Notes under the pieces: model-generated
What the model was told of the DNA's origin: nothing
The model's input: the letters and a program-made list of their open reading frames with translations, nothing else
The model's database searches: none
Shown here: positions 1 through 22,049 of the stretch, piece by piece
Position numbering within the stretch: position 1 is the first letter of the stretch
Layout of the letters: every line of letters starts with the position of its first letter
From: an uncultured bacterium
GTDB taxonomy: Bacteria > Bacteroidota > Ignavibacteria > Kapaibacteriales > UBA2268
Assembly: GCA_942492935.1 (NCBI GenBank)
Contig: OW818654.1
Span: forward strand, 3,052,640 to 3,116,639
DNA: 64,000 nt
Reading direction: 5' to 3'
Program-made: the position numbers and the translations under genes

Positions 1-650
1 ATTCTGTCAGTTTTGACTGCTAAAGGAGCAATCAACGGATCGGGATACCAACCAGTTAAATCACCTGAAGCAATACCACTTGGACGGGTAGATACATTTG
101 GAGACAGCATTTCTTGCGTAATCGAGCCAGCTTCAATTGCTTCAAGGAATGCACCTTTTCTGATTCTTGGATTTGGTAGAGTACCAGTAAGGTCACCACC
201 CATATTTTTCACGACATCAGCTAACTTTTCTAAAGTAATTATTCCATCTTTTACATCTTCTGATATACCAGCAATTGCTGCTTTTTCTGCATACAAAGAA
301 GTGAATGATGGAGTTAGTAGTGTTCTTGGATATGAAGAACCATTACCGAGTGTGATTTGCAACCACATAGATTTGCTAAAGTCTAAAGTTGTTGGAAAGG
401 GATTAATTGAACCAAGATAAACATTAAAATAACCGTTATCCAATGGCACATTTTGAATTTCGCTCCACAATTGTGAGCCAGATGTTTGTGCAGTATAAAG
501 TTCAAATGTCATTTGAACTGGACCCTGCATAGGATTATTTGTTAAAGCGTCAATCAAGTTACCCTGATAATTGGTTACTCTATTTTGAGCATTCAAACCA
601 CCAGCAATTATGCTAAGTAATAAGAAACTGATTAGAAACAATCTTTTCAT
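1..650 (-). CDS. Partial CDS (start codon at 650, runs off the window at position 1). Secreted protein with a signal peptide and an N-terminal domain related to the fibre-protein family at 3687-16421.
   Basis: Reverse-strand translation from ATG at 648-650: MKRLFLISFLLLSIIAGGLNAQNRVTNYQGNLID...LWSEIQNVPLDNGYFNVYLGSINPF...WLQITLGNG. Same motif order as the ISWQGILQD...LW.ETH...NG..NL.LGSV.PF...YWLE N-domain of the plus-strand paralogs. The ORF 13..420(+) in the supplied track is its shadow. Confidence 0.55.
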   Translation of the reverse strand, partial: MKRLFLISFLLLSIIAGGLNAQNRVTNYQGNLIDALTNNPMQGPVQMTFELYTAQTSGSQLWSEIQNVPLDNGYFNVYLGSINPFPTTLDFSKSMWLQITLGNGSSYPRTLLTPSFTSLYAEKAAIAGISEDVKDGIITLEKLADVVKNMGGDLTGTLPNPRIRKGAFLEAIEAGSITQEMLSPNVSTRPSGIASGDLTGWYPDPLIAPLAVKTDR

Positions 651-716: not shown

Positions 717-1310
717 TTATTTTGCAATTACCATGATATTATGCAAAATATAGTTGTTTGAAGCATTTGAACCAGACAAGTCGCCATGATTCACTTGCAT
801 TTCGTACATATAGGCACCAGAACCTACCTGAATACCATTATCGTTTTTTGTATCCCAGATTACAGAATATTTCCCAACTGAATTATAAGTATTAACGAGT
901 GTTTTTACTTCATTTCCTAACATATCATAAATCTTGAGAGTTACATTGCCTCCATTCTTGATGTTATATTCTATTGTAGTTGAAAAATTTACTGGATTTG
1001 GATAGTTAAATAAATCTCTTTTGTTGATTAATGTTTGACTTTCAACACTTGATTCTTTCTTTGGCTCTGGTACCCAAAAGCCCTGGTTTAAATTGTAATT
1101 TGTTGAACCTGGAACTAAATTTATTACATATCCAATAACAAATTGACCAGCTAAAATGTTTATTTTAATATCCTTTGAATTTGATATACCAACCATACCT
1201 CCATTTCCAAAAACCGATTTCTTTAATAGTGTGCTTTGAGAATTGCTTTTCATTGTAACTATTGAAAATATTATTGCTATTAACCAGAAAAAAATACTAA
1301 ATTTTTTCAT
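717..1310 (-). CDS. Small secreted protein with a T9SS (Por) C-terminal sorting domain
   Basis: Signal peptide. C-terminus LFNYPNPVNFSTTIEYNIKNGGNVTLKIYDMLGNEVKTLVN...GKYSVIWDTKNDNGIQVGSGAYMYEMQV matches the T9SS CTD consensus (NYPNPF...IYD..G..V..L......G.......WD......SG.Y.Y). Confidence 0.7.
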   Translation of the reverse strand: MKKFSIFFWLIAIIFSIVTMKSNSQSTLLKKSVFGNGGMVGISNSKDIKINILAGQFVIGYVINLVPGSTNYNLNQGFWVPEPKKESSVESQTLINKRDLFNYPNPVNFSTTIEYNIKNGGNVTLKIYDMLGNEVKTLVNTYNSVGKYSVIWDTKNDNGIQVGSGAYMYEMQVNHGDLSGSNASNNYILHNIMVIAK

Positions 1311-3686: not shown

Positions 3687-6600
3687 ATGTTCAAAAATTC
3701 AATTTACTTAGTATCATTCTTTATTGCAATTTCATTATTCTCACAAGTCAGCAATCAAATCAGCTGGCAAGGTATTCTTCAAGATGCCCAGGGCAATAAT
3801 CTTAATGGAACATTTAATATTAATGTTAAAGTTTTCAACTCAGAGTTTGGCGGAATGACAATGTGGCAAGAGACCCATCTCAATAAAAATATTGAAAATG
3901 GTTTTGTCAACTTACAATTGGGTAGTGTTTATCCATTCACTCTAAATTTCAAAGAAAACTATTGGCTTGAATTTACTATTAATGAAGGTACACCACTGAA
4001 TAGAATAAAAATGTCATCAGTACCTTATGCTAATTATGCACTGAATTCAGGCAATACCGGTTGGGGTTTAACTGGTAATGATGGAACAGAGACAAATATA
4101 AATTTCATTGGAACAACAGATAATCAAGGATTAGACTTTCGAACTTTCTATAAATTAAATCTTCGTTTAACTACCCAAGGACAACTTGAATTTCATAACA
4201 CTGGCAACTCAATATTTATTGGTGAAGGTGCTGGAGATAATGATGATTTAAGTGATAATTATAATTCATTTGTTGGCTTCCAATCAGGAAAATCAAACAC
4301 TGATGGTTATCATAATAATGCATTTGGTGCTTTATCGCTTAATGATAATATTTCTGGAACAAGCAATAATGCATTTGGTTTTAGTGCATTAAGAAATAAT
4401 ATTGATGGGTCTAATAATTCAGCTTTCGGCGAATCTTCCTTACAATCAAATGTGTCAGGAAATTTCAATACTGCATTTGGTGCATCTTCATTAGTATTTT
4501 CTACATCGGGTTCAGGAAATACTTCTATTGGTGCAGTTTCACTATTAAATAATTCAACTGGTTCCTATAATGTAGCAATAGGAAAAGATGCATTATATTC
4601 TAATAACAAAGGAGATTCTACCGTAGCAATTGGTTTTAGAGCAATGTTTTATATCTATAATCAAAATACTGCATTTACAAGTTATAGTACTGCAATTGGA
4701 ACTGAAGCATTGAGAGGTTCGTCAACTCCTTTGAATAATACTGGTATTGAAAATACAGCAATTGGCTTTAAAACACTTTTGAATAATAGTTCTGGTTTTG
4801 GCAATACAGGTGTAGGAACAAAAGTTTTGATAGATAATACAACAGGTGATATAAATGCTGGATTTGGAACTTATGCTCTAAATGCAAATACAGTAGGGAA
4901 TAATAATAGTGCATTTGGTGGTAGAGCATTAATATCTAACAAGTCTGGAGATAATAATACTGCAATAGGTTCTGGAACAATGCTATTTAATCTAACAGGT
5001 AATTCTAATATAGCAATTGGAAATGATGCACTTACATATAATAATAGTGCCGATTCAATCATTGCAATTGGTTTTAGAGCAATGTTTTATGCAAATAATT
5101 CTGAAAATCTAACATCAACTGAAAATACAGCAATTGGTACAGAAGCCTTGAGAGGTTCTGTAATTGCATCAAATAATACCGGTACCGGAAATACAGTTGT
5201 TGGATTTAAATCTATGATAAGCAACACTTCTGGTTATCAAAACTCTGCATTAGGGGTTTATACATTATTTTCAAATACAACAGGGTATAGAAATTCAGCA
5301 ATTGGCTTTGAAGCATTAAAAAATAATACTACAGGACATAGTAACTCTGCATTTGGTTATAATTCTCTCAAAAACAATAGTTTAGGTGATAATAACTCAG
5401 CATTTGGAAAAAGTAGTTTAATTTCAAACACTACAGGTAGGAACAATACAGCCATCGGCTCATCATCCTTAAATACAAATTCTTCGGGCAACAACAATAT
5501 TGCAATTGGTTTGCTTTCCCAGTATTCCAACGATACTTCATCTTATAACTTATCAATAGGTAATTTATCTTTATTCAATAATAAATCGGGCAAACGTAAT
5601 ATCGCTATAGGTGATTCATCTCTCTACACATTGGGATTACAATCTGATATACTCATTGATAATAATATTGCAATTGGTTTTAAATCTTTAAAAAAACTTG
5701 ATTTTTATGGAGCTGAAGGAAATATTGCAATAGGTTCTTTTTCTTTGAGCAACTTAAAAAATGGTTTTTACAATATTGCAATTGGATTAGACGCAATGTT
5801 AAATTCAGATTCAGCTTATTCATCTATTGCTATTGGATTCAATTCATTATTAGATAACAATGGTGCCAATAATATTGCAATTGGCACAAACTCACTTCGT
5901 TCAAATACAATTGGAGAATATAATATAGCCATTGGAGAACATTCTCTTTACGTTAATGAAGAAGGGTTTGAGAATATTTCTATGGGAGCTTATTCTGGGG
6001 CAAAAATTGGTAGTAAGAACATTGTAATTGGACATGAATCTGGTAGTAAGGGATTATTGGGTTTTGCACCAGCCATTTTTGATGGTTGTACTTTGATAGG
6101 AAACAATATAAGGGTTGCTGATTCTATTGCTAATAGTTCTGCTTTAGGTTTTTATGCTTCTGTTTTTGATAGCAACCAGATAAGAATTGGAAATTGGGAT
6201 GTTGAAAGTATAGGTGGTTATACTAATTGGACAAATCTTTCAGATGGAAGATTCAAGAAGAACATAAATGAAAATGTTCCTGGATTAAGTTTCATAAAAA
6301 AATTGAGAACCATTACTTACAATTTAGATACTGAATCAATTAAGAAAGCACTAAATTTGCCTGATTCATTAAAATATCTATATAACAATCCAAATAAATC
6401 AAAAATATTACAAACGGGATTTATTGCACAAGAAGTGGAAGAAGCTGCAAAACAAATCGGATTTGACTTCAGCGGTGTTGATAAACCAAAAAATGAAAAA
6501 GGTTTCTATGGCTTGCGTTATGCTGAATTTGTTGTTCCATTAGTAAAAGCAGTACAAGAGCAACAAAGTATTATTGAAATGCAAAACAAGAAAATTGAAT

Positions 6601-6698
6601 TACAGAATGAAAAAATAAATAATCAACAAAGTCAAATTCAAGATTTAGAAAATAAATATCAACAATTAATGAATATTATTTCAAACCAAAATAAATAG
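3687..6698 (+). CDS. Secreted tail-fibre-like protein 1. Conserved N-domain, ~16-17-aa Asn/Gly-rich repeats (N.A.G..SL..N..G) and a C-terminal intramolecular chaperone / peptidase S74-like domain with a coiled coil.
   Basis: Signal peptide. N-domain ISWQGILQDAQGNNLNG...MWQETH...NGFVNLQLGSVYPF...YWLEF. Long run of NTAIG/SAFG repeats. C-terminus WTNLSDGRFKKNI...GLSFIKKLRTITY...GFIAQEVEEAAKQIGFDFSGVDKP...YGLRYAEFVVPLVKAVQEQQ, then heptad-like QNKKIELQNEKINNQQSQIQDLENKYQQL. Confidence 0.85.
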   Translation: MFKNSIYLVSFFIAISLFSQVSNQISWQGILQDAQGNNLNGTFNINVKVFNSEFGGMTMWQETHLNKNIENGFVNLQLGSVYPFTLNFKENYWLEFTINEGTPLNRIKMSSVPYANYALNSGNTGWGLTGNDGTETNINFIGTTDNQGLDFRTFYKLNLRLTTQGQLEFHNTGNSIFIGEGAGDNDDLSDNYNSFVGFQSGKSNTDGYHNNAFGALSLNDNISGTSNNAFGFSALRNNIDGSNNSAFGESSLQSNVSGNFNTAFGASSLVFSTSGSGNTSIGAVSLLNNSTGSYNVAIGKDALYSNNKGDSTVAIGFRAMFYIYNQNTAFTSYSTAIGTEALRGSSTPLNNTGIENTAIGFKTLLNNSSGFGNTGVGTKVLIDNTTGDINAGFGTYALNANTVGNNNSAFGGRALISNKSGDNNTAIGSGTMLFNLTGNSNIAIGNDALTYNNSADSIIAIGFRAMFYANNSENLTSTENTAIGTEALRGSVIASNNTGTGNTVVGFKSMISNTSGYQNSALGVYTLFSNTTGYRNSAIGFEALKNNTTGHSNSAFGYNSLKNNSLGDNNSAFGKSSLISNTTGRNNTAIGSSSLNTNSSGNNNIAIGLLSQYSNDTSSYNLSIGNLSLFNNKSGKRNIAIGDSSLYTLGLQSDILIDNNIAIGFKSLKKLDFYGAEGNIAIGSFSLSNLKNGFYNIAIGLDAMLNSDSAYSSIAIGFNSLLDNNGANNIAIGTNSLRSNTIGEYNIAIGEHSLYVNEEGFENISMGAYSGAKIGSKNIVIGHESGSKGLLGFAPAIFDGCTLIGNNIRVADSIANSSALGFYASVFDSNQIRIGNWDVESIGGYTNWTNLSDGRFKKNINENVPGLSFIKKLRTITYNLDTESIKKALNLPDSLKYLYNNPNKSKILQTGFIAQEVEEAAKQIGFDFSGVDKPKNEKGFYGLRYAEFVVPLVKAVQEQQSIIEMQNKKIELQNEKINNQQSQIQDLENKYQQLMNIISNQNK

Positions 6699-6704
6699 GA
6701 AATT

Positions 6705-9700
6705 ATGAAAAAAATCTTTACCCTTTTTATGTTTATACTTAGTATAAATCTAATTTCGCAAGTCAGCAATCAGATTAGTTGGCAAGGAATTCTACAAGAT
6801 GCTCAAGGCAATAATCTTAATGGCACATACAACATTAATGTTAAAATTTTTCGTGTACAGTTTGATGGTGGAGTACTTTGGCAAGAAACTCATTTTAACA
6901 AAAACATTGAGAATGGCTATGTAAATTTAATTTTAGGAAGTGTTAATCCATTTGATTTAGATTTCACGGAAACTTATTGGCTAGAATTTTCTGTTAATGG
7001 CGGAAATCCTTTAAGCAGAATAAAAATGACTTCTGTTCCTTATGCAAATTACGCATTAAATGTCCCAGACCCGGGTTGGAGTTTAACAGGAAATTCAGGC
7101 ACTCAAAGTGATACTAATTTTATTGGAACAATAGATAGCAATAATTTGGATTTTCGAACAAACAATATTTTGAATCTTAGATTGACAACAAAAGGTCAGC
7201 TTGAGTTCCATAATACAGGAAATTCAATTTTTATTGGTGAAGGTGCAGGTGCAAGTGATGATTTAGTTAATAACGGGAATATTTTTGTTGGATATAAAAG
7301 TGGTACATTGAATACCAATGGCACACACAACATAGGATTAGGTGGTTATTCATTAACTGATAATACAATTGGAGCTGCCAATACCGGACTTGGTTCTTCT
7401 TCATTAAGAAAAAATATTTCCGGCAGTTATAATGTTGCAGTTGGTTCAGGTGCTTTACAGGAAAATAAAGCAAGTTATAATACTGCAGTTGGAACTAATT
7501 CATTAACTTTGAATACTATTGGGTCTGAAAATTCAGCTTTAGGTCAAGATGCTTTATTTAATAATGTTTCCGGTATTGGGTCGGTAGCAATTGGCAGTAA
7601 AGCACTATACACTAATATTTCAGGCGATTCTTTAGTTGCAATAGGTCTCAATGCTATGCAGTATTCAAATAGTTCCGAAAATAAATTTTCATCATTTAAT
7701 ACTGCTGTCGGTACTGAGGCATTAAGGGGTTCTACACCATCCAACAATAATACAGGAACTGAAAATACTGCAATTGGTTTTAAAACACTATCAAATAATT
7801 CAAGTGGAGACGCAAATACCGCTGTTGGGTCTAAATCATTATACAAAAATGCAGTAGGGACTTACAATTCTGGATTTGGTACAAATGCAATTTATTCAAA
7901 TACTGAAGGAAACAGCAATAGTGCTTTGGGAAGTTATTCATTATCTTCGAATACTTTAGGTTCGGACAACATAAGTATCGGAACCAGAGCAATGTTTATG
8001 AATTCAACCGGAAATGCTAATGTTGCGATTGGAAAGGACGCATTAATTTCAAATGTTAGTGGGGATTCAATTGTAGCAATAGGATTCCTTTCTATGTACT
8101 ATGCTAATAACAGCAATAGCTTGTATTCAACGAAAAACACTGCAATTGGGACAATGGCATTAAGAGGTTCTACCACTACTCCAAATAATACCGGAGTAGA
8201 AAATACTGCAATTGGCTTTCAATCATTAATGAGCAATTCAAGTGGTTCAAATAACACAGCAATTGGAAATATGTCTCTGTTAAATAATGAAACAGGGAGT
8301 GATAATATTGCGATTGGAGATAGTGCTGCATTGTTGAATACCACCGGCAGTAAAAATGTTGCTATAGGCAATGGTTCTTTATATTCCAATGTTAGCGGAG
8401 ATTCAATTGTCGCTATTGGTTTTGGTGCTATGTATTATGCTTCGGACTACCCAACTTTAAGTGCAACCCAAAATACTGCTGTTGGAACATTCGCACTAAG
8501 AGGCTCAACAACTCCAAGTAAAAATAATGGCAAATATAATACTGCTATTGGGTTCAAAGCAATGATGAATAATGAATTTGGCCTCAATAATACTGCTCTT
8601 GGTAATATGGCTCTTACTTCTAATACATCTGGAAGGTACAACACAGCTGTTGGTTCAAATTCATTAGAAATGAATACAGAAGGCAATTCAAATGTAGCAA
8701 TAGGTGATTTATCAATGAACCACACTACAATTGGCTCTTATAATACTGCATTAGGTTCATCTTCACTTCTAAATAATACCGAAGGAAACTCAAATGTTGC
8801 TTTGGGGGTTTTATCAATGATGGCAAACACAATTGGTTCAAATAATACTGCATTAGGTACAAGCTCCTTATACAGTAATACAATAGGCAATAATAATATA
8901 TCAATAGGGGACAATTCATTATTTGATAATTCAACGGGTTCAAATAATACAGCAACTGGTACTAAGGCACTCGAATTCAACACTATTGGCAATAACAACT
9001 CTGCTCTTGGCTATCTATCGCTTAATAAAAATACATCAGGTATAAATAATGTTGCTCTTGGTTATAGAACAGTTTATAGTAATACAACTGGCAATTTTAA
9101 TACAGGTGTTGGGTCAGAAGCATTAACGTCAAATAAAACTGGCGAAGAAAATACAGCATTTGGAAGTAATGCTTTATATTCAAATACAACAGCCAGCCGA
9201 AATGTAGCAATTGGTAGTGACGCTCAATTATCTAACACAACCGGACATCACAATTCAGCATTAGGTCATTCAGCACTCGCTTCAAACACCACAGGAAATT
9301 ATAATACGGCAATAGCAAACGAAGTTTTGTATTCTAATACAATGGGACATAACAACACAGGTTTGGGGTATTCAGCATTATACAATAATACTACGGGTAG
9401 TGATAATACTTCAATTGGTTATCAATCATTAAATGCAAACACAAGTGGTGGTGAAAATGTTGCTCTTGGTAGAAGTGCGGGTAGTATTGGAGAAACTAAC
9501 TCTTCGAATACATACATAGGTTTTGATGCAGATAATAATGTTAATTCCTACACAAATAGTACTGCAATTGGTCATACTTCAAGAATTTCATCAGATAATC
9601 AAGTAAGAATAGGTAATTCGTCTGTAACTACAATTGGTGGATATACTAATTGGACAAATCTTTCAGATGCAAAATTTAAAAATAATGTGAGTAATAATGT

Positions 9701-10073
9701 ACCGGGATTAGATTTTATTTTGAAATTAAATCCTGTTACTTACAAACTAAATATTAGTCTTTTGAATTCCTATTTGAATATACCAGATAGTTTAAGAAAC
9801 CTACAAAATGAATCTGCAAAAGCAAATTTACTTCAAACGGGCTTTATTGCTCAAGAAGTGGAAGAAGCGGCAAAGCAAATCGGATTTGACTTTAGCGGTG
9901 TTGATAAACCAAAAAATGACAAAGATTTCTATGGTTTGCGATATGCGGAATTTGTTGTTCCATTAGTAAAAGCAGTTCAAGAACAGCAAAGTATTATTGA
10001 AATGCAAAACAAGAAAATTGAAGAACTTGAAAAGAAACTTGAATTAATAATTAAAAGCATTAAAAATGATTAA
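6705..10073 (+). CDS. Secreted tail-fibre-like protein 2. Same architecture as fibre 1, with a longer repeat core.
   Basis: N-domain ~75% identical to fibre 1. Repeats of the type SGxxNTAxGxxSLxxNTxG throughout. C-terminus WTNLSDAKFKNNV...GFIAQEVEEAAKQIGFDFSGVDKPKNDKDFYGLRYAEFVVPLVKAVQEQQSIIEMQNKKIEELEKKLELIIKSIKND. Start is 7 nt after the fibre 1 stop. Confidence 0.85.
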   Translation: MKKIFTLFMFILSINLISQVSNQISWQGILQDAQGNNLNGTYNINVKIFRVQFDGGVLWQETHFNKNIENGYVNLILGSVNPFDLDFTETYWLEFSVNGGNPLSRIKMTSVPYANYALNVPDPGWSLTGNSGTQSDTNFIGTIDSNNLDFRTNNILNLRLTTKGQLEFHNTGNSIFIGEGAGASDDLVNNGNIFVGYKSGTLNTNGTHNIGLGGYSLTDNTIGAANTGLGSSSLRKNISGSYNVAVGSGALQENKASYNTAVGTNSLTLNTIGSENSALGQDALFNNVSGIGSVAIGSKALYTNISGDSLVAIGLNAMQYSNSSENKFSSFNTAVGTEALRGSTPSNNNTGTENTAIGFKTLSNNSSGDANTAVGSKSLYKNAVGTYNSGFGTNAIYSNTEGNSNSALGSYSLSSNTLGSDNISIGTRAMFMNSTGNANVAIGKDALISNVSGDSIVAIGFLSMYYANNSNSLYSTKNTAIGTMALRGSTTTPNNTGVENTAIGFQSLMSNSSGSNNTAIGNMSLLNNETGSDNIAIGDSAALLNTTGSKNVAIGNGSLYSNVSGDSIVAIGFGAMYYASDYPTLSATQNTAVGTFALRGSTTPSKNNGKYNTAIGFKAMMNNEFGLNNTALGNMALTSNTSGRYNTAVGSNSLEMNTEGNSNVAIGDLSMNHTTIGSYNTALGSSSLLNNTEGNSNVALGVLSMMANTIGSNNTALGTSSLYSNTIGNNNISIGDNSLFDNSTGSNNTATGTKALEFNTIGNNNSALGYLSLNKNTSGINNVALGYRTVYSNTTGNFNTGVGSEALTSNKTGEENTAFGSNALYSNTTASRNVAIGSDAQLSNTTGHHNSALGHSALASNTTGNYNTAIANEVLYSNTMGHNNTGLGYSALYNNTTGSDNTSIGYQSLNANTSGGENVALGRSAGSIGETNSSNTYIGFDADNNVNSYTNSTAIGHTSRISSDNQVRIGNSSVTTIGGYTNWTNLSDAKFKNNVSNNVPGLDFILKLNPVTYKLNISLLNSYLNIPDSLRNLQNESAKANLLQTGFIAQEVEEAAKQIGFDFSGVDKPKNDKDFYGLRYAEFVVPLVKAVQEQQSIIEMQNKKIEELEKKLELIIKSIKND

Positions 10074-10083
10074 AGGTTAAAAA

Positions 10084-13000
10084 ATGAAGAAGTTTATCTT
10101 CCTTTTTTTAGCAATTTTAATTAATTGCACAATTTATGCTCAAATTCCCAATACTATTTCTTGGCAGGGAATTTTGCAAGATGCCAACGGCAATAATTTA
10201 CATGGTTCATATAATTTGACTATTAAATTATATAATATTTCGAGTGGTGGAACAGCATTATGGACAGAAACACATAATTCTGTTTCTATATCAAATGGTT
10301 TAGCTAATTTATCGCTTGGTAGCGTCACTCCATTCAATCTCAATTTCGATAAGCAATATTGGCTTGAAATTACAGTAGGCAATGGAATACCGTTGACAAG
10401 GATAAAATTAACAACTGTGCCATATTCATTTCATTCCAATATTGCAAATTCATTAGCTGGAGGAATTAATGAGACTGACCCAGTTTTTATTGCAAGTCCT
10501 TCATTTGCTATTAATAATACAAATATTAATAATTGGAATACAGCATACTCTTGGGGTAATCATGCTAATCAAGGATATTTGACTTCGTTGAGTGAAACTG
10601 ACCCAGTTTTTATTGCAAGTCCTTCATTTGCTATTAATAATGCAAATATTACAAATTGGAATACGGCTTTTTCTTGGGGAAATCATGCTACTCAAGGATA
10701 TTTGACATCAATGAATGAAATTGACCCAGTTTTTATTGCAAGTCCTTCATTTGCTATTAATAATGCAAATATCACAAATTGGAATACGGCTTTTTCTTGG
10801 GGAAATCATGCTACTCAAGGTTACTTGACTTCAATGAATGAAACTGACCCAGTTTTTAATGTAAGTCCTGCGGCTGAAATTAATAATGTAAATATTAATA
10901 ATTGGAATACGGCTTACAATTGGGGAAATCATGCAAATCAAGGATATTTAACTTCTTATAATGAAACCGATCCAATATATTTTGCAAGTGTTGCAGCAAA
11001 TATTACAAATGAAAATGTTACTAATTGGAATACTGTTTATAGTTGGGGTAATCATGCTAATGAAGGATATTTGACTACATTTACAGAAAGTGATCCAATA
11101 TATATGGCAAGTGCTTCATCAGGAATAACAAATACAAATATAGCAAATTGGAATAATGCTTTTTTTTGGGGAAATCATGCAAATCAAGGATATTTAACTT
11201 CTTATAATGAAACCGACCCAATATATTTTGCAAGTGTTGCAGCAAATATTACAAATGAAAATGTTACTAATTGGAATACTGTTTATAGTTGGGGTAATCA
11301 TGCTAATGAAGGATATTTGACTTCATTTACAGAAAGTGATCTAATATATATGGCAAGTGCTTCATCAGGAATAACAAATACAAATATAGCAAATTGGAAT
11401 AATGCCTATCTTTGGGGGAATCATGCAAATCAAGGATATTTAACTTCTTATAATGAAACCGACCCAATATATTTAGCAAGTGTTGCAGCAAATATTACAA
11501 ATGAAAATGTTACTAATTGGAATGCGGCTTATAATTGGGGAAATCATGCAACTCAAGGATATTTGACTTCATTTACTGAAACTGACCCAGTTTTTAATGT
11601 AAGTCCTGCAGCAATAATTAATAATGTAAATATTAATAATTGGAATACTGCATACTCTTGGGGTAATCATGCTAATCAAGGATATTTGACATCATTTACA
11701 GAAACCGACCCAGTTTTTTTAGTTAGTGCGTCAGCAAATATCACAAATACTTATATAGCAAATTGGAATACTGCATATTTTTGGGGGAACCATGCTACTC
11801 AAGGATATTTGACTTCAATTACAGAAAATGACCCTATTTTCAATACAAGTCCTTCTTCAAGTATCACTTTAACAAATATTGCAAATTGGAACACTGCTTA
11901 TGGCTGGGGCAATCATGCTACTCAAGGATATTTGACTTCATCAACTGAAACTGACCCGTCATGGGGTGGCTCTTTAGATACAGATGGAATTATTTATAGG
12001 TTTGGTAAAGTCGCTCTAGGAATATCTACTCCTAAAGCACTTTTGCATATTAACGAAACTGAATCTGATGGTGGGAATGTCCTTTTTACAGGTACATATA
12101 AATTATCAGATCCTGGACCAGTACCCGATTCAGGAATGGGAACAAGGATGATGTGGTATCCAGATAGAGCAGCATTTAGGGCTGGATTTGTAGAAAATGA
12201 CCAATGGAACAGTAGTAATATTGGATATTATTCAACTGCTTTTTGGGGTCAATACTGTAGCATCAGGTTCTTATTCTACTGCATTGGGCTTTGGAACTAC
12301 AGCATCAGGCTCATATTCTATAGTTGCTGGAGAATCTAATATAGCATCAGGTTCTTATTCTACTGCTTTTGGAAATATTACAGTTGCATCTGGTTTAAAT
12401 TCTACTTCATTTGGAAAAAGTACCACAGCTTCTGGCCACTATTCAACTACTATTGGTGAAAATACTGTTGCTGAATCTGCTTATGAAACTGTGTTAGGTA
12501 GATGGAATTCTGATTACTCGCCAACCAATACAACAGGCTGGAGCAGTTTTGACCGTTTGTTTGTGGTTGGAAATGGTACTGCTTCAAATGCAAGAAGCAA
12601 TGCAATGACTATTTTAAAAAATGGCAAAGTTGGAATTGGAACTGATTTACCTTATAGCTTGCTTCATACTAAAGGATTAGGGACTGGTGAAGGGAATGTA
12701 TTATTTACTGGAACTTATAAGTCAGCTAATCCAGGATTAGCTCCCGATTCTAACGCAGGAACACGCATGATGTGGTACCCTGACAAATCTGCGTTTAGAA
12801 CTGGAACAATTGATGGTAATCAATGGAATACCGGAAATATTGGAAATTATTCTGTGGCAATGGGTTATTCAACAACAGCATCGGGTTCGTATTCTATAGC
12901 AACTGGAGAAAATACTTTTGCTGAATCTTCTTATGAAACTGTGTTAGGTAGATGGAATAGCGACTATACACCAAATTCAACAACAACTTGGAATAGTATT

Positions 13001-14416
13001 GATAGATTGTTTGTAATTGGAAATGGAACTGCTTCAAATACAAGAAGTAATGCACTGACTATTTTAAAAAATGGCAAAGTTGGAATTGGAACTGATTTAC
13101 CTTATGGCTTACTTCATGCTAAAGGTGTAGGGACTGGTGAAGGAAATGTATTATTTACAGGTTCTTATAAGTCAGTTAATCCAGGATTAGCTCCCGATTC
13201 TGGAGCAGGAACACGCATGATGTGGTACCCTGACAAATCTGCGTTTAGAGCTGGAACGGTTGATGGTAGTCAATGGAATACAGCAAACATTGGTGTATTT
13301 TCCACATCAATAGGACATAATAATATAGCATCGGGGCAATATTCTATATCGATGGGGGCTGAAAATGAAGCTACTGGTGTTACTTCAATTGCTTTGGGAA
13401 ATTCTTTGACATCCTCTGGTCTTGCTTCCGTAGCTATGGGTTATCATTCGACAGCATCGGGACAATATTCAACAGCTTTTGGATACGGTAATACTGCATC
13501 AGGTTCTATGTCAGCAGCAATAGGTTATTCTTGCATATCATCGGGATACGCTTCAATTGCAATGGGCGAAAGGACAGAATCATCTGGGTTTCACTCAATA
13601 GCTTTTGGATATATAACCGAAGCATCAGGAGATAAATCAACTGCCATGGGAGCATATACTTTAGCATCTGGATATTATAGTACAGCAGTAGGCAAAAATA
13701 CAGTTGCATCTGGTGATTATTCTATGTCGATTGGCGAGAACGTTAATTCAAAGTCAGCTTATGAGACAGTTATAGGAAGATGGAATGCTGATTATACTCC
13801 AAATTCCACAACAAATTGGAATTCTGCAGACCGCATATTTGTTGTTGGAAATGGTACTGCATCTGCCACGAGAAGTAATGCATTGACAATACTAAAAAAT
13901 GGTAGAGTTGGATTGCAAACTGTAACTAATCCTACATTTGCTCTCGAATTACCAAATAGTGCTACTGATGGGATTGGCAAAGGCAGAGCAAATGCTTGGT
14001 CAACTTATTCTGATGGTAGAATTAAAAGTAAACGCAAATCAATTATTTATGGGTTAAGAGAAATAATGATGCTCAATCCTCTTTATTACTATAAACATAA
14101 TTCAATTATTAAAGATGGCAAAATACAAATTAATGAAGATGGCTCTTATGATATTGGCTTTATTGCTCAAGATGTATATAAGGTTATTCCTGAAATAGTT
14201 TCAGTTCCAAATAATGAGTATTTGGATCTCTGGAGTATGTCTTATGAAAAATTGACTCCTATTTTAGTTAAAGCTATTCAAGAACAACAACAAATTATTG
14301 ATAATCAAAAGAAAAAGAATGATAGTCAAGATATGCTTATTCAAATTCAAAATCAAAAAATTGAGGAACTTGAAAAGAAACTGGAATTATTAATTAAAAG
14401 CATTAAAAATGAATAA
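10084..14416 (+). pseudogene. Tail-fibre-like protein 3 (~1444 aa if contiguous), split by a +1 frameshift into ORFs 10084..12339 and 12197..14416. Has the N-domain, 12 x 41-aa repeats, three ~150-aa modules with ASGxYS repeats, and an S74-like chaperone with a coiled coil.
   Basis: Frame 1 reads ...NIGYYSTAFWGQYCSIRF (nonsense tail). Frame 2 continues ...FGVNTVASGSYSTALGFGTTASGSYS, which matches the later repeats (GNYSVAMGYSTTASGSYSIATGE). The switch lies in the T5 run at 12240-12244; four T would give one ORF. C-terminus AWSTYSDGRIKSK...GFIAQDVYKVIPEIV...YEKLTPILVKAIQEQQ...EELEKKLELLIKSIKNE. Confidence 0.7.
10471..11947 (+). repeat. In-gene tandem repeat, 12 units of 123 bp (41 aa: ETDPVFIASPSFAINN.NI.NWNTAYSWGNHANQGYLTS). 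Several units are near-identical at the DNA level.
   Basis: Direct reading: the unit recurs every 123 bp from ~10471 to ~11947. For example, the stretch from 10921 recurs almost verbatim from 11167 and 11410. Confidence 0.8.
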
Positions 14417-14426
14417 AGGTTAAAAA

Positions 14427-16421
14427 ATGAAGAAGTTTATTTTCCTTTTTTTAGCAATTTTAATTAATTGCACAATTTATGCTCAAATTCCCAATACTAT
14501 TTCTTGGCAGGGAATTTTGCAAGATGCTAATGGAAATAATCTGAATGGCACATATAATTTAACAGTAAAATTATATGATGCGGCAAGTAACGGTTCAGCA
14601 TTATGGACAGAAACACATAATTCTGTTTCTATATCAAATGGTTTAGCTAATTTATCGCTTGGTAGTGTTACTCCATTCAATCTCAATTTCGATAAGCAAT
14701 ACTGGCTTGAAATTACTGTTGGAAACGGAACACCAATGCCGAGAATTGCTCTTACAACTGTTCCCTATTCATTTTATTCAGCCAAATCATCTGGAGTAAT
14801 TCAGAATGATTCATTAGTATTGAAGGATGCACAAGGAGTTACAAGAATTGTAATGAATCCAAATACTGGCACATTCAAAATGATGAATAATGATATTGTT
14901 TGGTATGAGATGAGTGTGAATTCACCACCTGAAAGCATTGAATATATGCCAGATGGCTCTAAAACTATTAGAACACCAGAAGGCGTTAAACAATACAATA
15001 GTAATTCAGAACTTATTTTTGAAAGAATTATTAAAAGTACTGGGATTAGTGATGAAAACAAAACAATCTTTGACGAAAAATACTATAATAATGGAAATTT
15101 AACCCAAAAATCCACTTATGAAGCTGATTTAAATTCTTCAAGTTTATCAATTACAAATTTTAGTAATGGTATTCCAATTACTGAAGAAATTCATAATGTA
15201 TATGTTGAAGATCCTGTATATTTAAAACAAAGTAGTTATTATTCCAACGGGGTTCTTGATAAAGAAATTACATTGACCCAAAACGGAATTCGAACTGAAA
15301 ATACTTTTGACAATGGTAATCTTCAAAAACAAATAATAGAAGAAGGTGATGACACAGAAAATGTTACTACAGTTACATTCTTTAAAGATGGGCTTGAGGT
15401 TCTGAAGGAAGTGATAAGAACAAATAAGTCAAGTCTTACTGCTATAACTGAAGAACAATATTTTGTAGATGGAGTTTTAATTAAGGAAATTATTACAAAT
15501 CGTAATGGTGAAGTAATTGAAAATATCTACGAAAATGGTGTACTTAAATTTTCTTCTTCTGATTACAAAGGAAAAAAAGTAGTAACAAGCCCAGATGGAC
15601 TATATCAGTATTATCAGGAACTAACTTCAACGGGTGTTTCTTTTGGTAAGATTGATGATGATAAGAAGGTGACAATAACTAAAAGTTCTAATTATTACCA
15701 AATTGGAGTAGGTGATGGTACAACAAATTCTGCATACATTGAATTTGACCAATTTGGTAATTTAAGATTAAAATCAAATACAGATTCTTACGTTGTTACA
15801 AATGGAAACTCTACAGTTACAGGCAACCAAATGGTTGGTGGGAATAGTCAGATTAATGGTATTCTTTCTACATATAGCAATTCTTTTTTTAATGGATATA
15901 CAACAATAAATGCACCATTTACTACAAATTTTGATGCAACCATCAAGGGTAATTTGCAATTAAATGGCAGTGAAACTGTTAATGGAAATTCACTAATAAA
16001 AGGTAATTTACAAGTAAATGGAAATAAGCAATTTCTAATTGACCATCCAGATGATCCTTACAATAAATATTTGAGTCATGCCTCAATTGAGTCCGATGAA
16101 GTATTAAATCAATATACAGGAAATACTATTACAGATGAAAATGGATTTGCAACAGTTACTTTAGCAGATTATGTACAAAAAATCAATGTTGATTTTCGCT
16201 ATCAACTTACTGTTATAGGACAATTTGCACAAGCTATAATTTCTAAGGAAATTAACAACAATAAATTTGTAATCCAGACAGACAAGCCAAATGTTAAAGT
16301 TAGTTGGTTGATTACAGCGAAACGAAATGATAAATATATGCAGGAGAATCCTTTTGAACCAGTTAAACTGAAGGATAAAAAAGCATTAAATAGAATTGAA
16401 TATTTAAAAAATAATAAATAG
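14427..16421 (+). CDS. Secreted fibre-family protein 4. N-domain nearly identical to fibre 3, a different repeat core, and a distinct conserved C-terminal domain (no S74 motif).
   Basis: The first ~115 aa match 10084.. nearly residue-for-residue. Core has loose Y..NG.L repeats. C-terminus FLIDHPDDPYNKYLSHASIESDEVLNQYTGNTITDENGFATVTLADYVQKINVDFRYQLTVIGQFAQAIISKEINNNKFVIQTDKPNVKVSWLITAKRNDKYM. Confidence 0.8.
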   Translation: MKKFIFLFLAILINCTIYAQIPNTISWQGILQDANGNNLNGTYNLTVKLYDAASNGSALWTETHNSVSISNGLANLSLGSVTPFNLNFDKQYWLEITVGNGTPMPRIALTTVPYSFYSAKSSGVIQNDSLVLKDAQGVTRIVMNPNTGTFKMMNNDIVWYEMSVNSPPESIEYMPDGSKTIRTPEGVKQYNSNSELIFERIIKSTGISDENKTIFDEKYYNNGNLTQKSTYEADLNSSSLSITNFSNGIPITEEIHNVYVEDPVYLKQSSYYSNGVLDKEITLTQNGIRTENTFDNGNLQKQIIEEGDDTENVTTVTFFKDGLEVLKEVIRTNKSSLTAITEEQYFVDGVLIKEIITNRNGEVIENIYENGVLKFSSSDYKGKKVVTSPDGLYQYYQELTSTGVSFGKIDDDKKVTITKSSNYYQIGVGDGTTNSAYIEFDQFGNLRLKSNTDSYVVTNGNSTVTGNQMVGGNSQINGILSTYSNSFFNGYTTINAPFTTNFDATIKGNLQLNGSETVNGNSLIKGNLQVNGNKQFLIDHPDDPYNKYLSHASIESDEVLNQYTGNTITDENGFATVTLADYVQKINVDFRYQLTVIGQFAQAIISKEINNNKFVIQTDKPNVKVSWLITAKRNDKYMQENPFEPVKLKDKKALNRIEYLKNNK

Positions 16422-16429
16422 GTTAAAAA

Positions 16430-17152
16430 ATGAAAAAAACTATTTTACTAATCGTGATTTTTAGTGTATTTACTCTAATTTCTCAAGAATACACTTTGAA
16501 ATCTTATGTGATTGGCTCGACAGCAACAACTGTTTCAAACGACCAATACACATTTCGAAGCACAGTCGGTCAACCAGCAATCGGCGTATTTGAGAGCAAT
16601 ACCAACAAATTAAAAAGTGGCTTTTGGTATAATTTTGATGGACCAGCAATCACTACACATAATATTACATTACTAAAAGGTTGGAATCTTATTTCTACTT
16701 ACGTAGAGCCAACTGACCCCGATATTAAGGAGATATTCAAAAATGTCAAGGACAAAATTATTATTGTGAAAAATATATCAGGAAAAATCTATCTTGCCTC
16801 AACAGATTATAATCAGATTGGAAATTGGGCTATAACAGAAGGTTATCAGGTATATGCTCAAGAATTATGTACTTTGTCTATTGTGGGAGTAAAAGTAAGA
16901 CCATCAAATACCCCAATAACTTTTTCACGTTCTGGATGGCACTATATTTCTTATTTACGGGATAGTGATTTATCAATTGTTACAGCTTTAACTGATGTAA
17001 CAGAAAATGAAAAAATGGTAATTACAAAAAATGTTAGCGGTCAAATTTATATGACCACCCCTAATTATATCAATACAATTAATTTAATGAAGCCCGGGCA
17101 AGGATACCAAATATACTTAACCGGTTCAACTACATTAACTTATCCGGATTAG
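16430..17152 (+). CDS. Small secreted protein (signal peptide) with an internal duplication. Last gene of the fibre operon; function unknown.
   Basis: MKKTILLIVIFSVFTLISQ signal. Motif YTLKSYVIGS...YTFRSTVGQPAIG...KLKSGFWYNF. Two copies of V.KN.SG.IY...Y..I.......GYQ.Y. Start is 9 nt after the previous stop. Confidence 0.55.
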   Translation: MKKTILLIVIFSVFTLISQEYTLKSYVIGSTATTVSNDQYTFRSTVGQPAIGVFESNTNKLKSGFWYNFDGPAITTHNITLLKGWNLISTYVEPTDPDIKEIFKNVKDKIIIVKNISGKIYLASTDYNQIGNWAITEGYQVYAQELCTLSIVGVKVRPSNTPITFSRSGWHYISYLRDSDLSIVTALTDVTENEKMVITKNVSGQIYMTTPNYINTINLMKPGQGYQIYLTGSTTLTYPD

Positions 17153-17388: not shown

Positions 17389-18597
17389 TTACAAGAACAA
17401 GTAAAAAGCTAATAAAAGTCTAATATTGGATACTGTTACAGCATCTTTAACCAACGCTTTGTCATCTTTATCTATATTACCAAAGCAAGCTTGAGTATAT
17501 TCAACTTCAAATGCTGTTTTAGTTTTTCCATAATTATATGCTATTCTTGGTGAAATTCTTAGAATTTGATTAATGTTAGTTCCCCTACCATAAACTACAT
17601 TTGTAAGTGGATTATCATCAGTTCCTAAATTTTGTGAATATCCTGCAAAAATTGCATATTCAAAATCACTCTTGTACATTAATTCAGTCCAAGCAGCAAG
17701 TACTTTTTCAGGTGTATATTCAATTGTATTTGAATCAATATATTTATCAGCATAGCCACCTATGAACATTAGGTCATTCATATTACCACCATAAGTTCCC
17801 TGAACTTTGAACTGGAATTTATCCATTGTCAATTTCAAATAGCCAGTAGCACCAAATGTTGATAAATTATCCTCTGATTTTGTTTTTGATAAAGGATTAA
17901 TGAGTTGTGGTCTTATAGTTTTATAGCTACCAACAGCTCCCAATAAGAAATTATCTGTTTTAATTTGCAAACCTAAAGTTGCTTCAGGTAAGCCAGAATT
18001 TCTTAAATAATTTGAGGAAATTACATTGTTTGGTCCATAATTTGAAAAATCACGTTGAGTATTAATTCCAATAGATAATTTCAAAATATCAAATTTTTGA
18101 GTAAATTTGATTTGAGGGCTCCTTGCGAATGGTTGAAATGGAACACCTGTATTAAATGAAATTACATCAGGAAATGATTCAGTCTGAAAAAATGGATGCC
18201 ATGTTTGTCCAACTAATACTTGAGAATCATCAAAATTGTAATCGATGAAAGCATGTCTCATTCTAACACCATTAGTAACATCATTAGTAGAGCCAAAAAA
18301 TTCTGCCTCAATAAATCCAGTTACTTTACCACCGAGTAATTCCACGCCATCAATTTTAGCATTAACCCTTGTTTGAATTGATAAAATATTAAAATTTGGT
18401 GTAGCGTTTATATCTTCTTTGTTAGCATCAAGTATTTCTCTGTCAGGATAAAGTAAAAAATGCCCTTCTCTTGCGTTGACTGTTTGTCGAGTGTCATACA
18501 TTACATCTGTTTTAATAAAGCCACCAAATTTTATATTTGGCTGAGCAATAATAATAGTTGAAGAAAGCACAAATAATATTAGAAAAACTCTTTTCAT
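17389..18597 (-). CDS. Putative outer-membrane beta-barrel (porin-like) protein
   Basis: Signal peptide MKRVFLILFVLSSTIIIAQ. Alternating hydrophobic beta-strand pattern throughout. No recognisable enzyme motifs. Confidence 0.5.
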   Translation of the reverse strand: MKRVFLILFVLSSTIIIAQPNIKFGGFIKTDVMYDTRQTVNAREGHFLLYPDREILDANKEDINATPNFNILSIQTRVNAKIDGVELLGGKVTGFIEAEFFGSTNDVTNGVRMRHAFIDYNFDDSQVLVGQTWHPFFQTESFPDVISFNTGVPFQPFARSPQIKFTQKFDILKLSIGINTQRDFSNYGPNNVISSNYLRNSGLPEATLGLQIKTDNFLLGAVGSYKTIRPQLINPLSKTKSEDNLSTFGATGYLKLTMDKFQFKVQGTYGGNMNDLMFIGGYADKYIDSNTIEYTPEKVLAAWTELMYKSDFEYAIFAGYSQNLGTDDNPLTNVVYGRGTNINQILRISPRIAYNYGKTKTAFEVEYTQACFGNIDKDDKALVKDAVTVSNIRLLLAFYLFL

Positions 18598-22033: not shown

Positions 22034-22049
22034 ATTAAATTTTCCGTAA

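What the first reader, a model, noticed from the sequence alone, without database searches (positions are those of the whole stretch)
3687..17152. Co-directional array of paralogous secreted tail-fibre-like proteins with phage-type S74 chaperone domains, and no phage genes alongside
Four large fibre genes (1003, 1122, about 1444 when repaired, and 664 aa) plus a small secreted protein are packed with 7-10-nt spacers. Each fibre has a Sec signal peptide and a conserved ~120-aa N-terminal domain. Their cores differ: Asn/Gly-rich short repeats, or 41-aa repeats. Three end in a C-terminal intramolecular chaperone domain of the peptidase S74 type. That domain (known from endosialidase and phage tail spikes) trimerises a beta-helix fibre and then cleaves itself off at a Ser...Lys dyad. 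Here the dyad motif is SDGRFK, SDAKFK or SDGRIK, followed by GFIAQEVEE...Y..L.P.LVKA.QEQQ and a coiled coil. The flanks are rho and a histidine kinase with an outer-membrane protein; there is no capsid, terminase, sheath or baseplate gene. This looks like a cellular surface-fibre system. The shared N-domain would dock onto a common anchor, and the variable distal parts would give different binding specificities. A further divergent paralog at 1-650 on the other strand shows the family is expanded.
Basis: partly seen in the sequence, partly recalled or inferred. Interest (0 to 1): 0.8.

Follow-up and report, generated by a model that had tools for sequence, protein, structure and literature searches.

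The report
Cell-surface fibre genes with phage-like tips
This is a chromosomal cluster of genes for long secreted fibres of the "mosaic adhesive trimer" (MAT) kind described in Bdellovibrio in 2024: a cell-type docking domain fused to phage-like stalks and tips. The kind is known, but each cluster also carries a small, undescribed partner gene that may show how such fibres are held on the cell.

Summary
Four co-directional fibre genes (1003, 1122, 1443 after repairing one frameshift, and 664 aa) and a 240-aa secreted protein lie 6-10 nt apart. A fifth paralog runs off the window at 650..1 (-).

- **N-domain:** all five fibres share a ~100-aa Ig-like domain directly after a signal peptide.
- **C-termini:** three end in a Peptidase_S74 chaperone domain above Pfam's threshold, with SDxxxK in register with solved S74-type domains.
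- **Context:** no phage genes were found. Every flank that matched a family is housekeeping or regulatory.

It is not a new kind of system. The N-domain is homologous to the N-domain of the Bdellovibrio MAT fibres (Caulton 2024): 76 of 79 family representatives hit NCBIfam Bdello_MAT_N. That paper already lists members in the FCB group of phyla. The N-domain family is very large (89,697 clusters) and was not found in the phage collections, whereas stalks and tips have phage relatives.

New here: each array is paired with one accessory gene encoding a signal peptide, a conserved ~50-aa module and variable domains. In 11 of 17 cases these include a sorting domain for the type IX secretion system (T9SS). 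The window has two such genes (16430-17152; 717-1310, -). It is a candidate anchor or adaptor, not yet tested.

The parts
1..650 (-). F0: 5' part of a fifth fibre gene, which runs off the window. Signal peptide, then a divergent N-domain (aa 22-124, nt 587-279).
   Evidence: Translation. N-domain HMM E 1e-30 (this sequence was in the model). 31-47% identity to the other N-domains.
717..1310 (-). Accessory gene A (197 aa), directly upstream of F0. Signal peptide, conserved ~55-aa module (nt 1238-1068), short linker, then a T9SS type A C-terminal sorting domain (nt 1004-717).
   Evidence: TIGR04183 Por_Secre_tail 28.5 bits against a cutoff of 23. Pfam FlgD_ig 38.7 bits. Homologues sit directly next to fibre genes in L013, L024, L025, L029, L032, L039 and L054.
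3687..6698 (+). F1, 1003 aa. Signal peptide; N-domain nt 3744-4037; 17-residue Asn/Gly-rich repeat stalk; S74 chaperone domain from Ser852 (SDGRFK, nt 6240-6257) to the end. The predicted released fragment is 152 aa and ends in a coiled coil.
   Evidence: (phrog_4636 tail spike, E 1.6e-94).
6705..10073 (+). F2, 1122 aa. Same plan as F1. N-domain nt 6759-7052; S74 domain from Ser987 (SDAKFK, nt 9663-9680); predicted fragment 136 aa.
   Evidence: phrog_4636, E 9e-133; about 33% identity to SPO1-like phage, cyanophage and other phage proteins.
10084..14416 (+). F3, 1443 aa once a 1-base frameshift in gcTTTTTGGGGt (12238-12248) is repaired. N-domain nt 10141-10434; 12 copies of a 41-aa repeat (nt 10466-11957); YadA-head-like repeats; S74 domain from SDGRIK (nt 14009-14026); predicted fragment 135 aa.
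   Evidence: (phrog_9729 tail fibre, E 1.7e-195).
14427..16421 (+). F4, 664 aa, the member without S74. N-domain nt 14484-14777; beta-hairpin repeat middle region; short repeat segment; compact C-terminal tip (about aa 532-664, nt 16020-16421).
   Evidence: AlphaFold2 model: mean pLDDT 68.7, mostly above 90 across about aa 561-630 within the tip. The tip is 34% identical to a minor tail protein of Arthrobacter phage Mufasa8 (E 7e-9). No Pfam family. Homologues in 14 related loci.
16430..17152 (+). Accessory gene B (240 aa), the last gene of the array. Signal peptide, the same ~50-aa module (nt 16484-16630), then two 'GWNLIS' domains of about 75 aa. This copy has no T9SS sorting domain.
   Evidence: No Pfam, NCBIfam or PHROG family. 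Homologues lie immediately downstream of the last fibre gene in L002-L007, L010, L051, L052, L055 and L056. Longer homologues end in a T9SS sorting domain.
9994..10293 (+). Duplicated junction: 3' tail of F2, the spacer and the 5' end of F3. It is 89% identical to 14337-14636, which holds the 3' tail of F3, the spacer and the 5' end of F4.
   Evidence: the repeat finder family D9. D10 and D11 show the F1 and F2 3' regions at 85% and 71%.

Best explanation
**What it is.** The locus encodes cell-made surface fibres of the MAT (mosaic adhesive trimer) superfamily. The host chromosome has about 30% G+C and appears to belong to the FCB group of phyla, close to Kapabacteria/Ignavibacteria.

**Proposed mechanism, step by step:**

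1. Each fibre is exported by Sec through an N-terminal signal peptide.
2. In F1-F3, the C-terminal S74 domain trimerises and templates folding of the repeat stalk.
3. The S74 domain then cuts itself off at the Ser of SDxxxK, using a Ser-Lys pair, and releases a fragment of 135-152 aa. F4 carries a different tip and has no chaperone domain.
4. The conserved Ig-like N-domain stays next to the cell and holds the fibre there.
5. The stalks and tips differ between paralogs. They are exchanged among paralogs and shared with phage receptor-binding proteins, and they set what each fibre binds.

**What is shown and what is inferred.** Shown here are the gene architecture, the homology of the N-domain to Bdello_MAT_N, the S74 assignment, the absence of the N-domain from the phage collections searched, the cellular context, and the mosaic duplications. 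Trimer formation, self-cleavage, surface location and ligand binding are inferred from homologues.

**Added inference (my own estimate: about 0.35).** The accessory protein paired with each array may be the docking partner or export adaptor for the N-domains. It consists of a signal peptide, a 50-aa module and often a T9SS sorting domain. T9SS would place it on the surface. The fibres themselves lack any T9SS signal.
For: **N-domain homology.**
- 76 of 79 representatives of the N-domain family hit NCBIfam NF053851 Bdello_MAT_N, best E 5e-20.
- The window's F3 and F4 hit it at E about 1e-4.

**Architecture.**
- MAT proteins from FCB-group bacteria are already listed in that paper.

**S74.**
- PF13884 scores above its gathering score in three fibres.
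- A profile of the C-termini hits the MyRF domain 7dc3 (E 1.3e-4) and the phage long tail fibre 6f45 (E 3.3e-3), with the Ser/Lys motif in register.

**Cellular, not phage.**
- The N-domain profile finds 89,697 clusters.
- It finds nothing in 50,697 phage genomes and no confirmed match in IMG/VR.
- Neighbours are housekeeping genes.

**Phage-like distal parts:**

**Arrays and mosaicism.**
- Co-directional arrays of 2-5 fibre genes occur in many relatives.
- Duplicated junctions are present in the window.
- Close relatives have arrays of different composition.

**Accessory gene.**
- A module gene lies next to the array in both window arrays.
- It does so in at least 17 of the 51 loci of the first fetch, and in 9-10 of the 18 with both flanks visible.
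- It does so in all four loci fetched independently.
- There is one per array regardless of fibre number.
- 11 of 17 carry a T9SS type A sorting domain.
- No fibre carries one.
Against: - The window's own N-domains score only about 22 bits against Bdello_MAT_N, whose cutoff is 60. They belong to the superfamily, not to the Bdellovibrio subfamily that the model names.
- Trimerisation was not tested. The monomer model of F4 has low confidence in the repeat segments.
- Nothing here shows how a fibre without a T9SS signal crosses the outer membrane.
- The 240-aa accessory lacks the sorting domain. About half the loci with both flanks visible show no detectable module gene.
- The correlation between module identity and N-domain identity (r = 0.79) is confounded by shared ancestry.
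- DNA to the left of the window is unseen.
Confidence: 0.78

Rival explanations
1. These are ordinary phage tail fibres or spikes left by a prophage or a tailocin cluster. The remaining genes would lie outside the window or have decayed.
For: The stalks and S74 modules match PHROG tail-spike and tail-fibre families very strongly (E down to 1.7e-195). They also match proteins of many phages at about 33% identity. The F4 tip matches a phage minor tail protein. DNA to the left of the window is unseen.
Against: - All five fibres have signal peptides and a cell-type N-domain where a phage fibre would have its virion-attachment domain.
- That N-domain was not found in 50,697 phage genomes, and a pattern scan of IMG/VR gave no confirmed match.
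- No phage structural gene was detected among the ORFs tested in the other 47 kb; rho lies between the two arrays.
- Four related loci with called genes show only cellular neighbours where a Pfam family is on record.
- The same arrays recur across several phyla.
Confidence: 0.03
2. The fibres are real MAT-like proteins but are released rather than anchored, for example as matrix components or soluble lectins. The accessory gene would be an unrelated, co-transcribed T9SS cargo or a folding helper, not an anchor.
For: - No anchor has been shown for any MAT protein.
- The 240-aa accessory has no sorting domain, and half the fully visible loci lack a detectable module gene.
- T9SS cargo genes are common in these genomes anyway.
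Against: - Bdellovibrio MATs were shown to be surface-exposed.
- The N-domain is conserved across about 90,000 clusters and almost always sits directly after the signal peptide. This argues for a fixed, shared interaction.
- The only T9SS-domain genes within 800 nt of fibre genes are module genes, counting the two divergent, hand-assigned copies in L035 and L041.
- The pairing holds across phyla and in both window arrays.
Confidence: 0.17
3. They are trimeric autotransporter adhesins of the YadA type (type Vc secretion).
For: F3b has six YadA_head stretches (E 4e-38) and local hits to Ata, YadA, EmaA and BimA.
Against: No fibre has a C-terminal YadA membrane-anchor barrel. The C-termini are S74 domains or a phage-like tip. 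All NCBIfam autotransporter scores are far below their cutoffs (for example 52 against 2500).
Confidence: 0.01

Closest known systems
Bdellovibrio bacteriovorus MAT (mosaic adhesive trimer) fibre family, e.g. Bd3182 (S74 tip) and Bd2133, Bd1334, Bd2439 (non-S74 tips); Caulton et al. 2024, PMC10769870
   Same: - Signal peptide, then a conserved beta-rich N-domain, a long repeat fibre, and either an S74 self-cleaving chaperone with SDxxxK or an alternative tip.
- Several paralogs per genome with swapped tips.
- N-domain homology is supported by 76 of 79 family members hitting Bdello_MAT_N.
- No close structural match for the N-domain in the PDB, as that paper also reports.
   Different: - A different phylum (FCB group rather than Bdellovibrionota), with no evidence of predation.
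- The window's N-domains fall below the NCBIfam cutoff (22 against 60 bits).
- Different stalk repeats: 17-residue Asn/Gly repeats, 41-residue repeats and YadA-head-like repeats.
- Genes are packed in tight co-directional arrays.
- Each array has an accessory module gene, often with a T9SS sorting domain. I found no description of this in the MAT papers read here.
Phage tail spikes and fibres with a C-terminal intramolecular chaperone domain (Peptidase_S74): K1F endosialidase, T5 L-shaped tail fibre, SPO1-like 'intramolecular chaperone auto-processing domain' proteins
   Same: The S74 domain with its Ser-Lys motif and the repeat stalks are homologous.
   Different: There is no virion-attachment N-terminus and there are no phage neighbours. 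Instead there is a Sec signal peptide and a cellular N-domain that was not found in the phage collections.
T9SS type A cargo proteins of Bacteroidota (C-terminal sorting domain, cleaved by PorU and attached to anionic LPS)
   Same: The 197-aa accessory and 10 of 16 homologues carry a TIGR04183/PF18962 sorting domain.
   Different: The functional part is only a module of about 50 aa of unknown role. The fibres themselves carry no sorting domain. Attachment to LPS comes from general knowledge of T9SS and was not tested here.
PamT, the predicted tip pilin and donor-strand acceptor of the Pam pilus of CPR (Candidate Phyla Radiation) bacteria (bioRxiv 10.64898/2026.03.03.709456)
   Same: Three of 17 accessory proteins match NF058579 over the leader and module region (E 1.7e-6 to 1e-3). 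That paper notes a tail-fibre-like gene co-located with pam operons.
   Different: Scores of 18-28 bits fall far short of the cutoff of 240, and the match includes the signal peptide. No Pam pilins or chaperones are present here. This is a lead only.
Trimeric autotransporter adhesins (YadA family)
   Same: F3 has YadA_head-type repeats.
   Different: There is no C-terminal membrane anchor. The secretion logic is different.

Membership tests
MAT fibre superfamily (Caulton 2024) | Conserved beta-rich N-domain of about 100-130 aa directly after a signal peptide, homologous to the Bdellovibrio MAT N-domain | tested here: met
   76 of 79 representatives of the window's N-domain family hit NF053851, best E 5e-20. 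Window F3 and F4 hit at E about 1e-4, residues 12-82 against profile positions 4-76. The model is an Ig-like sandwich, pLDDT 85.7. The window proteins are below NCBI's 60-bit cutoff for the Bdellovibrio subfamily.
MAT fibre superfamily (Caulton 2024) | C-terminus is either an S74 chaperone/protease (SDxxxK) or an alternative tip domain; tips are mosaic between paralogs | tested here: met
   Three S74 tips and one non-S74 tip. Duplicated junctions and differing arrays in relatives.
MAT fibre superfamily (Caulton 2024) | Homotrimeric fibre along its whole length | tested here: inconclusive
   Only monomer prediction was available. Repeat segments of F4 have pLDDT below 50. Trimer-type repeats (YadA_head, tail-spike PHROGs) are present.
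MAT fibre superfamily (Caulton 2024) | Exposed on the cell surface | not testable with these tools
   Needs microscopy or proteomics.
Peptidase S74 / C-terminal intramolecular chaperone domain | Profile match at or above the curated threshold | tested here: met
   PF13884 at 32-33 bits against a gathering score of 22 in F1, F2 and F3b.
Peptidase S74 / C-terminal intramolecular chaperone domain | Catalytic Ser and Lys (SDxxxK) aligned with those of solved members | tested here: met
   The profile alignment places sDgriK opposite ADLRAK of MyRF 7dc3 (this chain has Ala where the window proteins have Ser) and SDRRIK of phage fibre 6f45.
Peptidase S74 / C-terminal intramolecular chaperone domain | Self-cleavage releasing the C-terminal fragment | not testable with these tools
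   The predicted fragments are 152, 136 and 135 aa. Needs expression of the wild type against a Ser-to-Ala mutant.
Prophage or tailocin tail fibre | Located among phage structural genes (capsid, terminase, sheath, baseplate) | tested here: not met
   No such gene was detected among the window ORFs tested (several ORFs matched no family) or in four related loci with Pfam-annotated genes. DNA to the left of the window is unseen.
Trimeric autotransporter adhesin (YadA) | C-terminal YadA membrane-anchor barrel | tested here: not met
   No anchor family was hit. The C-termini are S74 domains or a phage-like tip.
T9SS type A cargo (accessory protein 717-1310) | C-terminal sorting domain at or above the curated threshold | tested here: met
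   TIGR04183 at 28.5 bits against a cutoff of 23. 11 of 17 accessory homologues hit it. It is not met for the 240-aa accessory or for any fibre.
CPR pilus protein PamT (accessory module) | NF058579 at or above its cutoff of 240 bits | tested here: not met
   18.5-27.7 bits in 3 of 17, over the leader plus module only.

The most novel reading that the evidence does not exclude
The small accessory protein (signal peptide, ~50-aa module, usually a T9SS sorting domain) may be the missing cell-side partner of MAT-type fibres in FCB-group bacteria.

In this reading, T9SS exports it and fixes it to the outer surface. Its module then binds the conserved N-domain of every fibre in the adjacent array, possibly by completing a beta-sheet as the faint PamT resemblance hints. 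This would both anchor the fibres and perhaps carry them out of the cell. It would name a candidate answer to the anchor question left open for Bdellovibrio MATs, for a family of about 90,000 clusters.
Probability: 0.25. Interest if true: 0.7.

Novelty: new member of a known kind. Interest (0 to 1): 0.45.

Why it matters
**Reach of the family.** MAT fibres have been studied by experiment only in Bdellovibrio, where they are thought to recognise prey. This locus and its relatives show the same design in Kapabacteria, Ignavibacteria, Zixibacteria, Eisenbacteria, Marinimicrobia and Bacteroidota genome bins. It occurs as tight arrays, with 89,697 clusters matching the N-domain and no Pfam model for it.

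**How it is built.** The design joins a cell-only docking domain to receptor-binding parts borrowed from phages. Such fibres are likely a general way for bacteria to bind varied surfaces.

**A testable lead.** The paired accessory gene, often a T9SS cargo, is a concrete and cheaply testable candidate for how these fibres are held on the cell. The papers read here leave that question open.

Tried and rejected
**Source and annotation look-ups**
- Exact look-ups did not name the source genome. It is known only as one 4.49-Mb NCBI contig.
- The genome scan did not return the window's own genome.
- The family searches on the 240-aa accessory and on the module profile gave only 3 and 2 hits, because the search depends on shared short words.
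- Sequence search of the PDB with a single S74 C-terminus, and with the F4 tip, gave nothing significant. Only the profile of several C-termini worked.

**Structure searches**
- The AFDB fold library was unavailable.
- Foldseek with the full F4 model gave non-specific matches to OspA-like and YD-repeat sheets, with TM-scores below 0.2 relative to the query.
No complex prediction was possible.

**Other tests**
- The promoter and terminator scan was uninformative: fewer promoter-like sites than in shuffled sequence, and no + strand terminator within the array.
- The correlation between module identity and N-domain identity (r = 0.79) is not used as evidence of co-evolution, because shared ancestry explains it equally well.

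**Interpretations rejected**
- Prophage remnant.
- Trimeric autotransporter.
- The outer-membrane protein (17389-18597) or the histidine kinase as conserved partners. The outer-membrane protein is found in none of the 51 loci, and the kinase only by chance in 2.

Full report
**What is in the sequence**

The + strand between 3687 and 17152 carries a tight run of ORFs:

| Name | Coordinates | Length |
|---|---|---|
| F1 | 3687-6698 | 1003 aa |
| F2 | 6705-10073 | 1122 aa |
| F3a + F3b | 10084-12339 + 12197-14416 | 1443 aa when joined |
| F4 | 14427-16421 | 664 aa |
| Accessory B | 16430-17152 | 240 aa |

The spacers are 6, 10, 10 and 8 nt. The two F3 ORFs overlap in different frames around the run gcTTTTTGGGGt. 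Removing one base at 12238-12248 gives a single 1443-aa ORF that reads straight through the repeat pattern. A fifth paralog, F0, starts at 650 on the - strand and runs off the window.

Each fibre begins with a basic and hydrophobic leader followed by Gln. From my own knowledge, this fits the Bacteroidota habit of signal-peptidase cleavage before Gln. No signal-peptide predictor was available.

**The shared N-domain**

**The variable middle parts**

- F1 and F2 have a 17-residue period and are about half Asn/Gly/Ser/Thr.
- F3 has 12 copies of a 41-aa repeat, then YadA_head-type repeats (E 4e-38).
- F4 has beta-hairpin repeats, then a compact C-terminal domain predicted at pLDDT mostly above 90.

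**The C-termini**

F1, F2 and F3 hit Pfam Peptidase_S74 above the gathering score: 32-33 bits against 22. A profile of these C-termini finds two solved structures, the self-processing domain of MyRF (7dc3, E 1.3e-4) and a phage long tail fibre (6f45, E 3.3e-3). In both, the SDxxxK motif is in register. The predicted cleavage sites are Ser852, Ser987 and Ser605 of F3b, giving fragments of 152, 136 and 135 aa that end in coiled coil.

**Cellular or phage?**

The distal parts are clearly of phage type.
- The stalks hit PHROG tail-spike and tail-fibre families, with E down to 1.7e-195.
- The last 390 aa of F2 match proteins of 109 phage records at about 33% identity. One of these is annotated as an intramolecular chaperone auto-processing protein.
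- The F4 tip matches a minor tail protein of an Arthrobacter phage (E 7e-9).

The proximal part and the context are cellular.
- The N-domain finds nothing in 50,697 phage genomes. A pattern scan of IMG/VR gave no confirmed match. The two accessory proteins also find nothing in the phage genomes.
- The window holds rho, an ECF sigma factor, FtsW, MurD, peptide deformylase, ribosomal protein S1, Mfd, TsaD, CinA and similar genes. No phage structural gene was detected, although several ORFs matched no family.
- Four related loci with called genes show the same picture: pyrophosphatase, a two-component system, MscL, DapB, ribosomal protein L17, OsmC.
- Only the DNA to the left of position 1 remains unseen.

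**What family is it?**

NCBIfam gave a weak hit of F3 and F4 to NF053851, 'Bdello_MAT_N, mosaic adhesive trimer family chimeric fiber protein' (E about 1e-4, 22 bits, cutoff 60).

A profile of the N-domain, run against 1.84 billion representative proteins, found 89,697 proteins at E up to 1e-3 and 38,157 at E up to 1e-10. The domain almost always starts near residue 20. Of 79 representatives scanned singly, 76 hit Bdello_MAT_N, with a best E of 5e-20. I take this as good evidence that the domain is homologous to the Bdellovibrio MAT N-domain, at superfamily rather than subfamily level. Among the same 79, 19 carry Peptidase_S74 and 9 carry YadA_head.

[quoted passage not shown] It proposes that the N-domain binds an unidentified surface element. 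Its Supplementary Table S3 already lists MAT proteins from FCB-group bacteria such as Kordia, Dokdonia (S74-like tip), Salinivirga and Saprospiraceae. The locus is a new member of a known kind.

**Relatives**

A genome scan with the N-domain returned 51 loci. They come from Kapabacteria, Ignavibacteria, Zixibacteria, Eisenbacteria, Marinimicrobia, Bacteroidota and unclassified bins. The closest protein relatives are labelled Candidatus Kapabacteria. Co-directional arrays of 2-5 fibre genes are common among them.

Within the window, a 300-nt segment covering the 3' tail of one gene, the spacer and the 5' end of the next occurs twice at 89% identity: 9994-10293 and 14337-14636. The F1 and F2 3' regions are 85% identical. 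Two close relatives place a different fibre type in front of the accessory gene. Together these fit cassette shuffling among paralogs.

**A conserved partner gene**

The outer-membrane protein at 17389-18597 has no homologue in any of the 51 loci. The histidine kinase matches in only two, not next to the arrays.

The 240-aa protein does have homologues, and they lie directly after the last fibre gene in L002-L007, L010 and L051. The conserved part is a module of about 50 aa just after the signal peptide. Its consensus is QxYxLKxYVxGSGGxxxSNxxxxxxxTxGQPAIGKxxNxxxxxxxGFW. After the module come variable domains.

The 197-aa protein at 717-1310 (-), directly upstream of F0, carries the same module. 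It is followed only by a linker and a T9SS type A sorting domain (TIGR04183, 28.5 bits against a cutoff of 23). Its homologues sit directly beside fibre genes in L013, L024, L025, L029, L032 and L039.

The counts are as follows.
- Both window arrays have a module gene.
- At least 17 of the 51 loci have one. Two of these, L035 and L041, are divergent copies that I assigned by eye.
- Of the 18 loci with both flanks visible, 9-10 have one.
- All four loci fetched independently have one.
- There is one per array, whatever the number of fibres.
- 11 of 17 accessory proteins carry a T9SS sorting domain.
- No fibre carries one. The only T9SS-domain genes within 800 nt of fibres are module genes, counting the two divergent copies.

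The module has no Pfam or PHROG family. Three members weakly match the leader-plus-N-terminal region of PamT, a predicted tip pilin of a pilus in CPR bacteria (E 1.7e-6 to 1e-3, far below the cutoff). The paper describing PamT notes a tail-fibre-like gene co-located with pam operons. I treat this as a lead only.

**How it most likely works**

1. The fibres are exported by Sec.
2. The S74 domain forms the trimer and guides stalk folding.
3. The S74 domain then cuts itself off at the Ser of SDxxxK.
4. The N-domain remains next to the cell.
5. The distal parts bind different targets.

Steps 2-5 are inferred from homologues. I put the fibre identification at about 0.78.

I put at about 0.35 the further idea that the accessory protein is the dock or export adaptor. 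The evidence for it is conserved adjacency, one copy per array, and a T9SS surface-attachment signal that the fibres lack.

The prophage reading and the autotransporter reading are rejected, for the reasons given under the rival explanations.

**Verdict**

The finding is real and correctly interpreted, but it belongs to a family published in 2024. Its added value is twofold: the breadth of the family outside predators, and a partner gene I found described nowhere in the papers read, which makes the open question of MAT fibre anchoring directly testable. A literature search found no paper naming the anchor.

Noticed in passing
window 12238-12248: The F3 frameshift lies in a T5G4 homopolymer run. 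It could be a sequencing error in a long-read assembly, a pseudogene, or a slippage switch that turns this fibre off. The exact F1 and F2 sequences are also not on record in the protein collection, unlike F4 and the housekeeping proteins looked up (rho is also missing).
   Followed up: partly
window 16640-17149 (accessory B, aa 71-240); also L004 15130-16914: Two tandem domains of about 75 aa with a 'GWNLIS...GYQVY' signature have no Pfam, NCBIfam or PHROG family. They recur at the C-terminus of a larger repeat protein near another array. Their function is unknown.
   Followed up: no
N-domain family as a whole: The N-domain matches 89,697 clusters at 50% identity, yet the 2025 Pfam-A copy has no model for it. 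NCBIfam covers only the Bdellovibrio subfamily. A few members also weakly hit 'choice-of-anchor R' (NF041539, best E 1.4e-7).
   Followed up: partly
L046, L047, L048: N-domain fibre genes (37% identity) occur on contigs binned as Aenigmatarchaeota or 'uncultured archaeon'. This could be mis-binning or transfer into DPANN archaea (a group of very small archaea).
   Followed up: no
L003, L005, L007, L010, L051: Contigs carrying Kapabacteria-like fibre arrays (57-70% identity in the N-domain) are labelled Desulfobulbaceae or Hyphomicrobiales in their records. These are probably binning or labelling errors.
   Followed up: no
P0181, P0182: Very small proteins of 93-103 aa consist of a leader, the accessory module and a short 'Y(K/E)(V/I)Y(M/L)PLVLRQ' tail. 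The module therefore also exists as a stand-alone unit in other lineages.
   Followed up: no
window 32410-35019 (-): An 869-aa protein with a PNGase F C-terminal domain and a T9SS sorting domain (Por_Secre_tail, 29.7 bits). It shows that the organism has T9SS cargo, but it is not linked to the fibre locus.
   Followed up: no
window 21290-23930 (-): An ECF sigma factor gene (23367-23930) is followed by two ORFs of 426 and 247 aa with no Pfam or PHROG family. These could be an anti-sigma factor and a partner. They are not conserved next to fibre arrays elsewhere.
   Followed up: partly
whole window: Housekeeping proteins (Def, TsaD, FtsW and others) are singletons at 90% identity in a 15-billion-protein collection. 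The source, a single 4.49-Mb NCBI contig with about 30% G+C, has no close sequenced relative there. One metagenome protein is 92% identical to accessory B.
   Followed up: partly
window 24452-25615 (-) and 60377-61624 (-): There are two FtsW/RodA-family genes in the window. The first lies next to murD.
   Followed up: no
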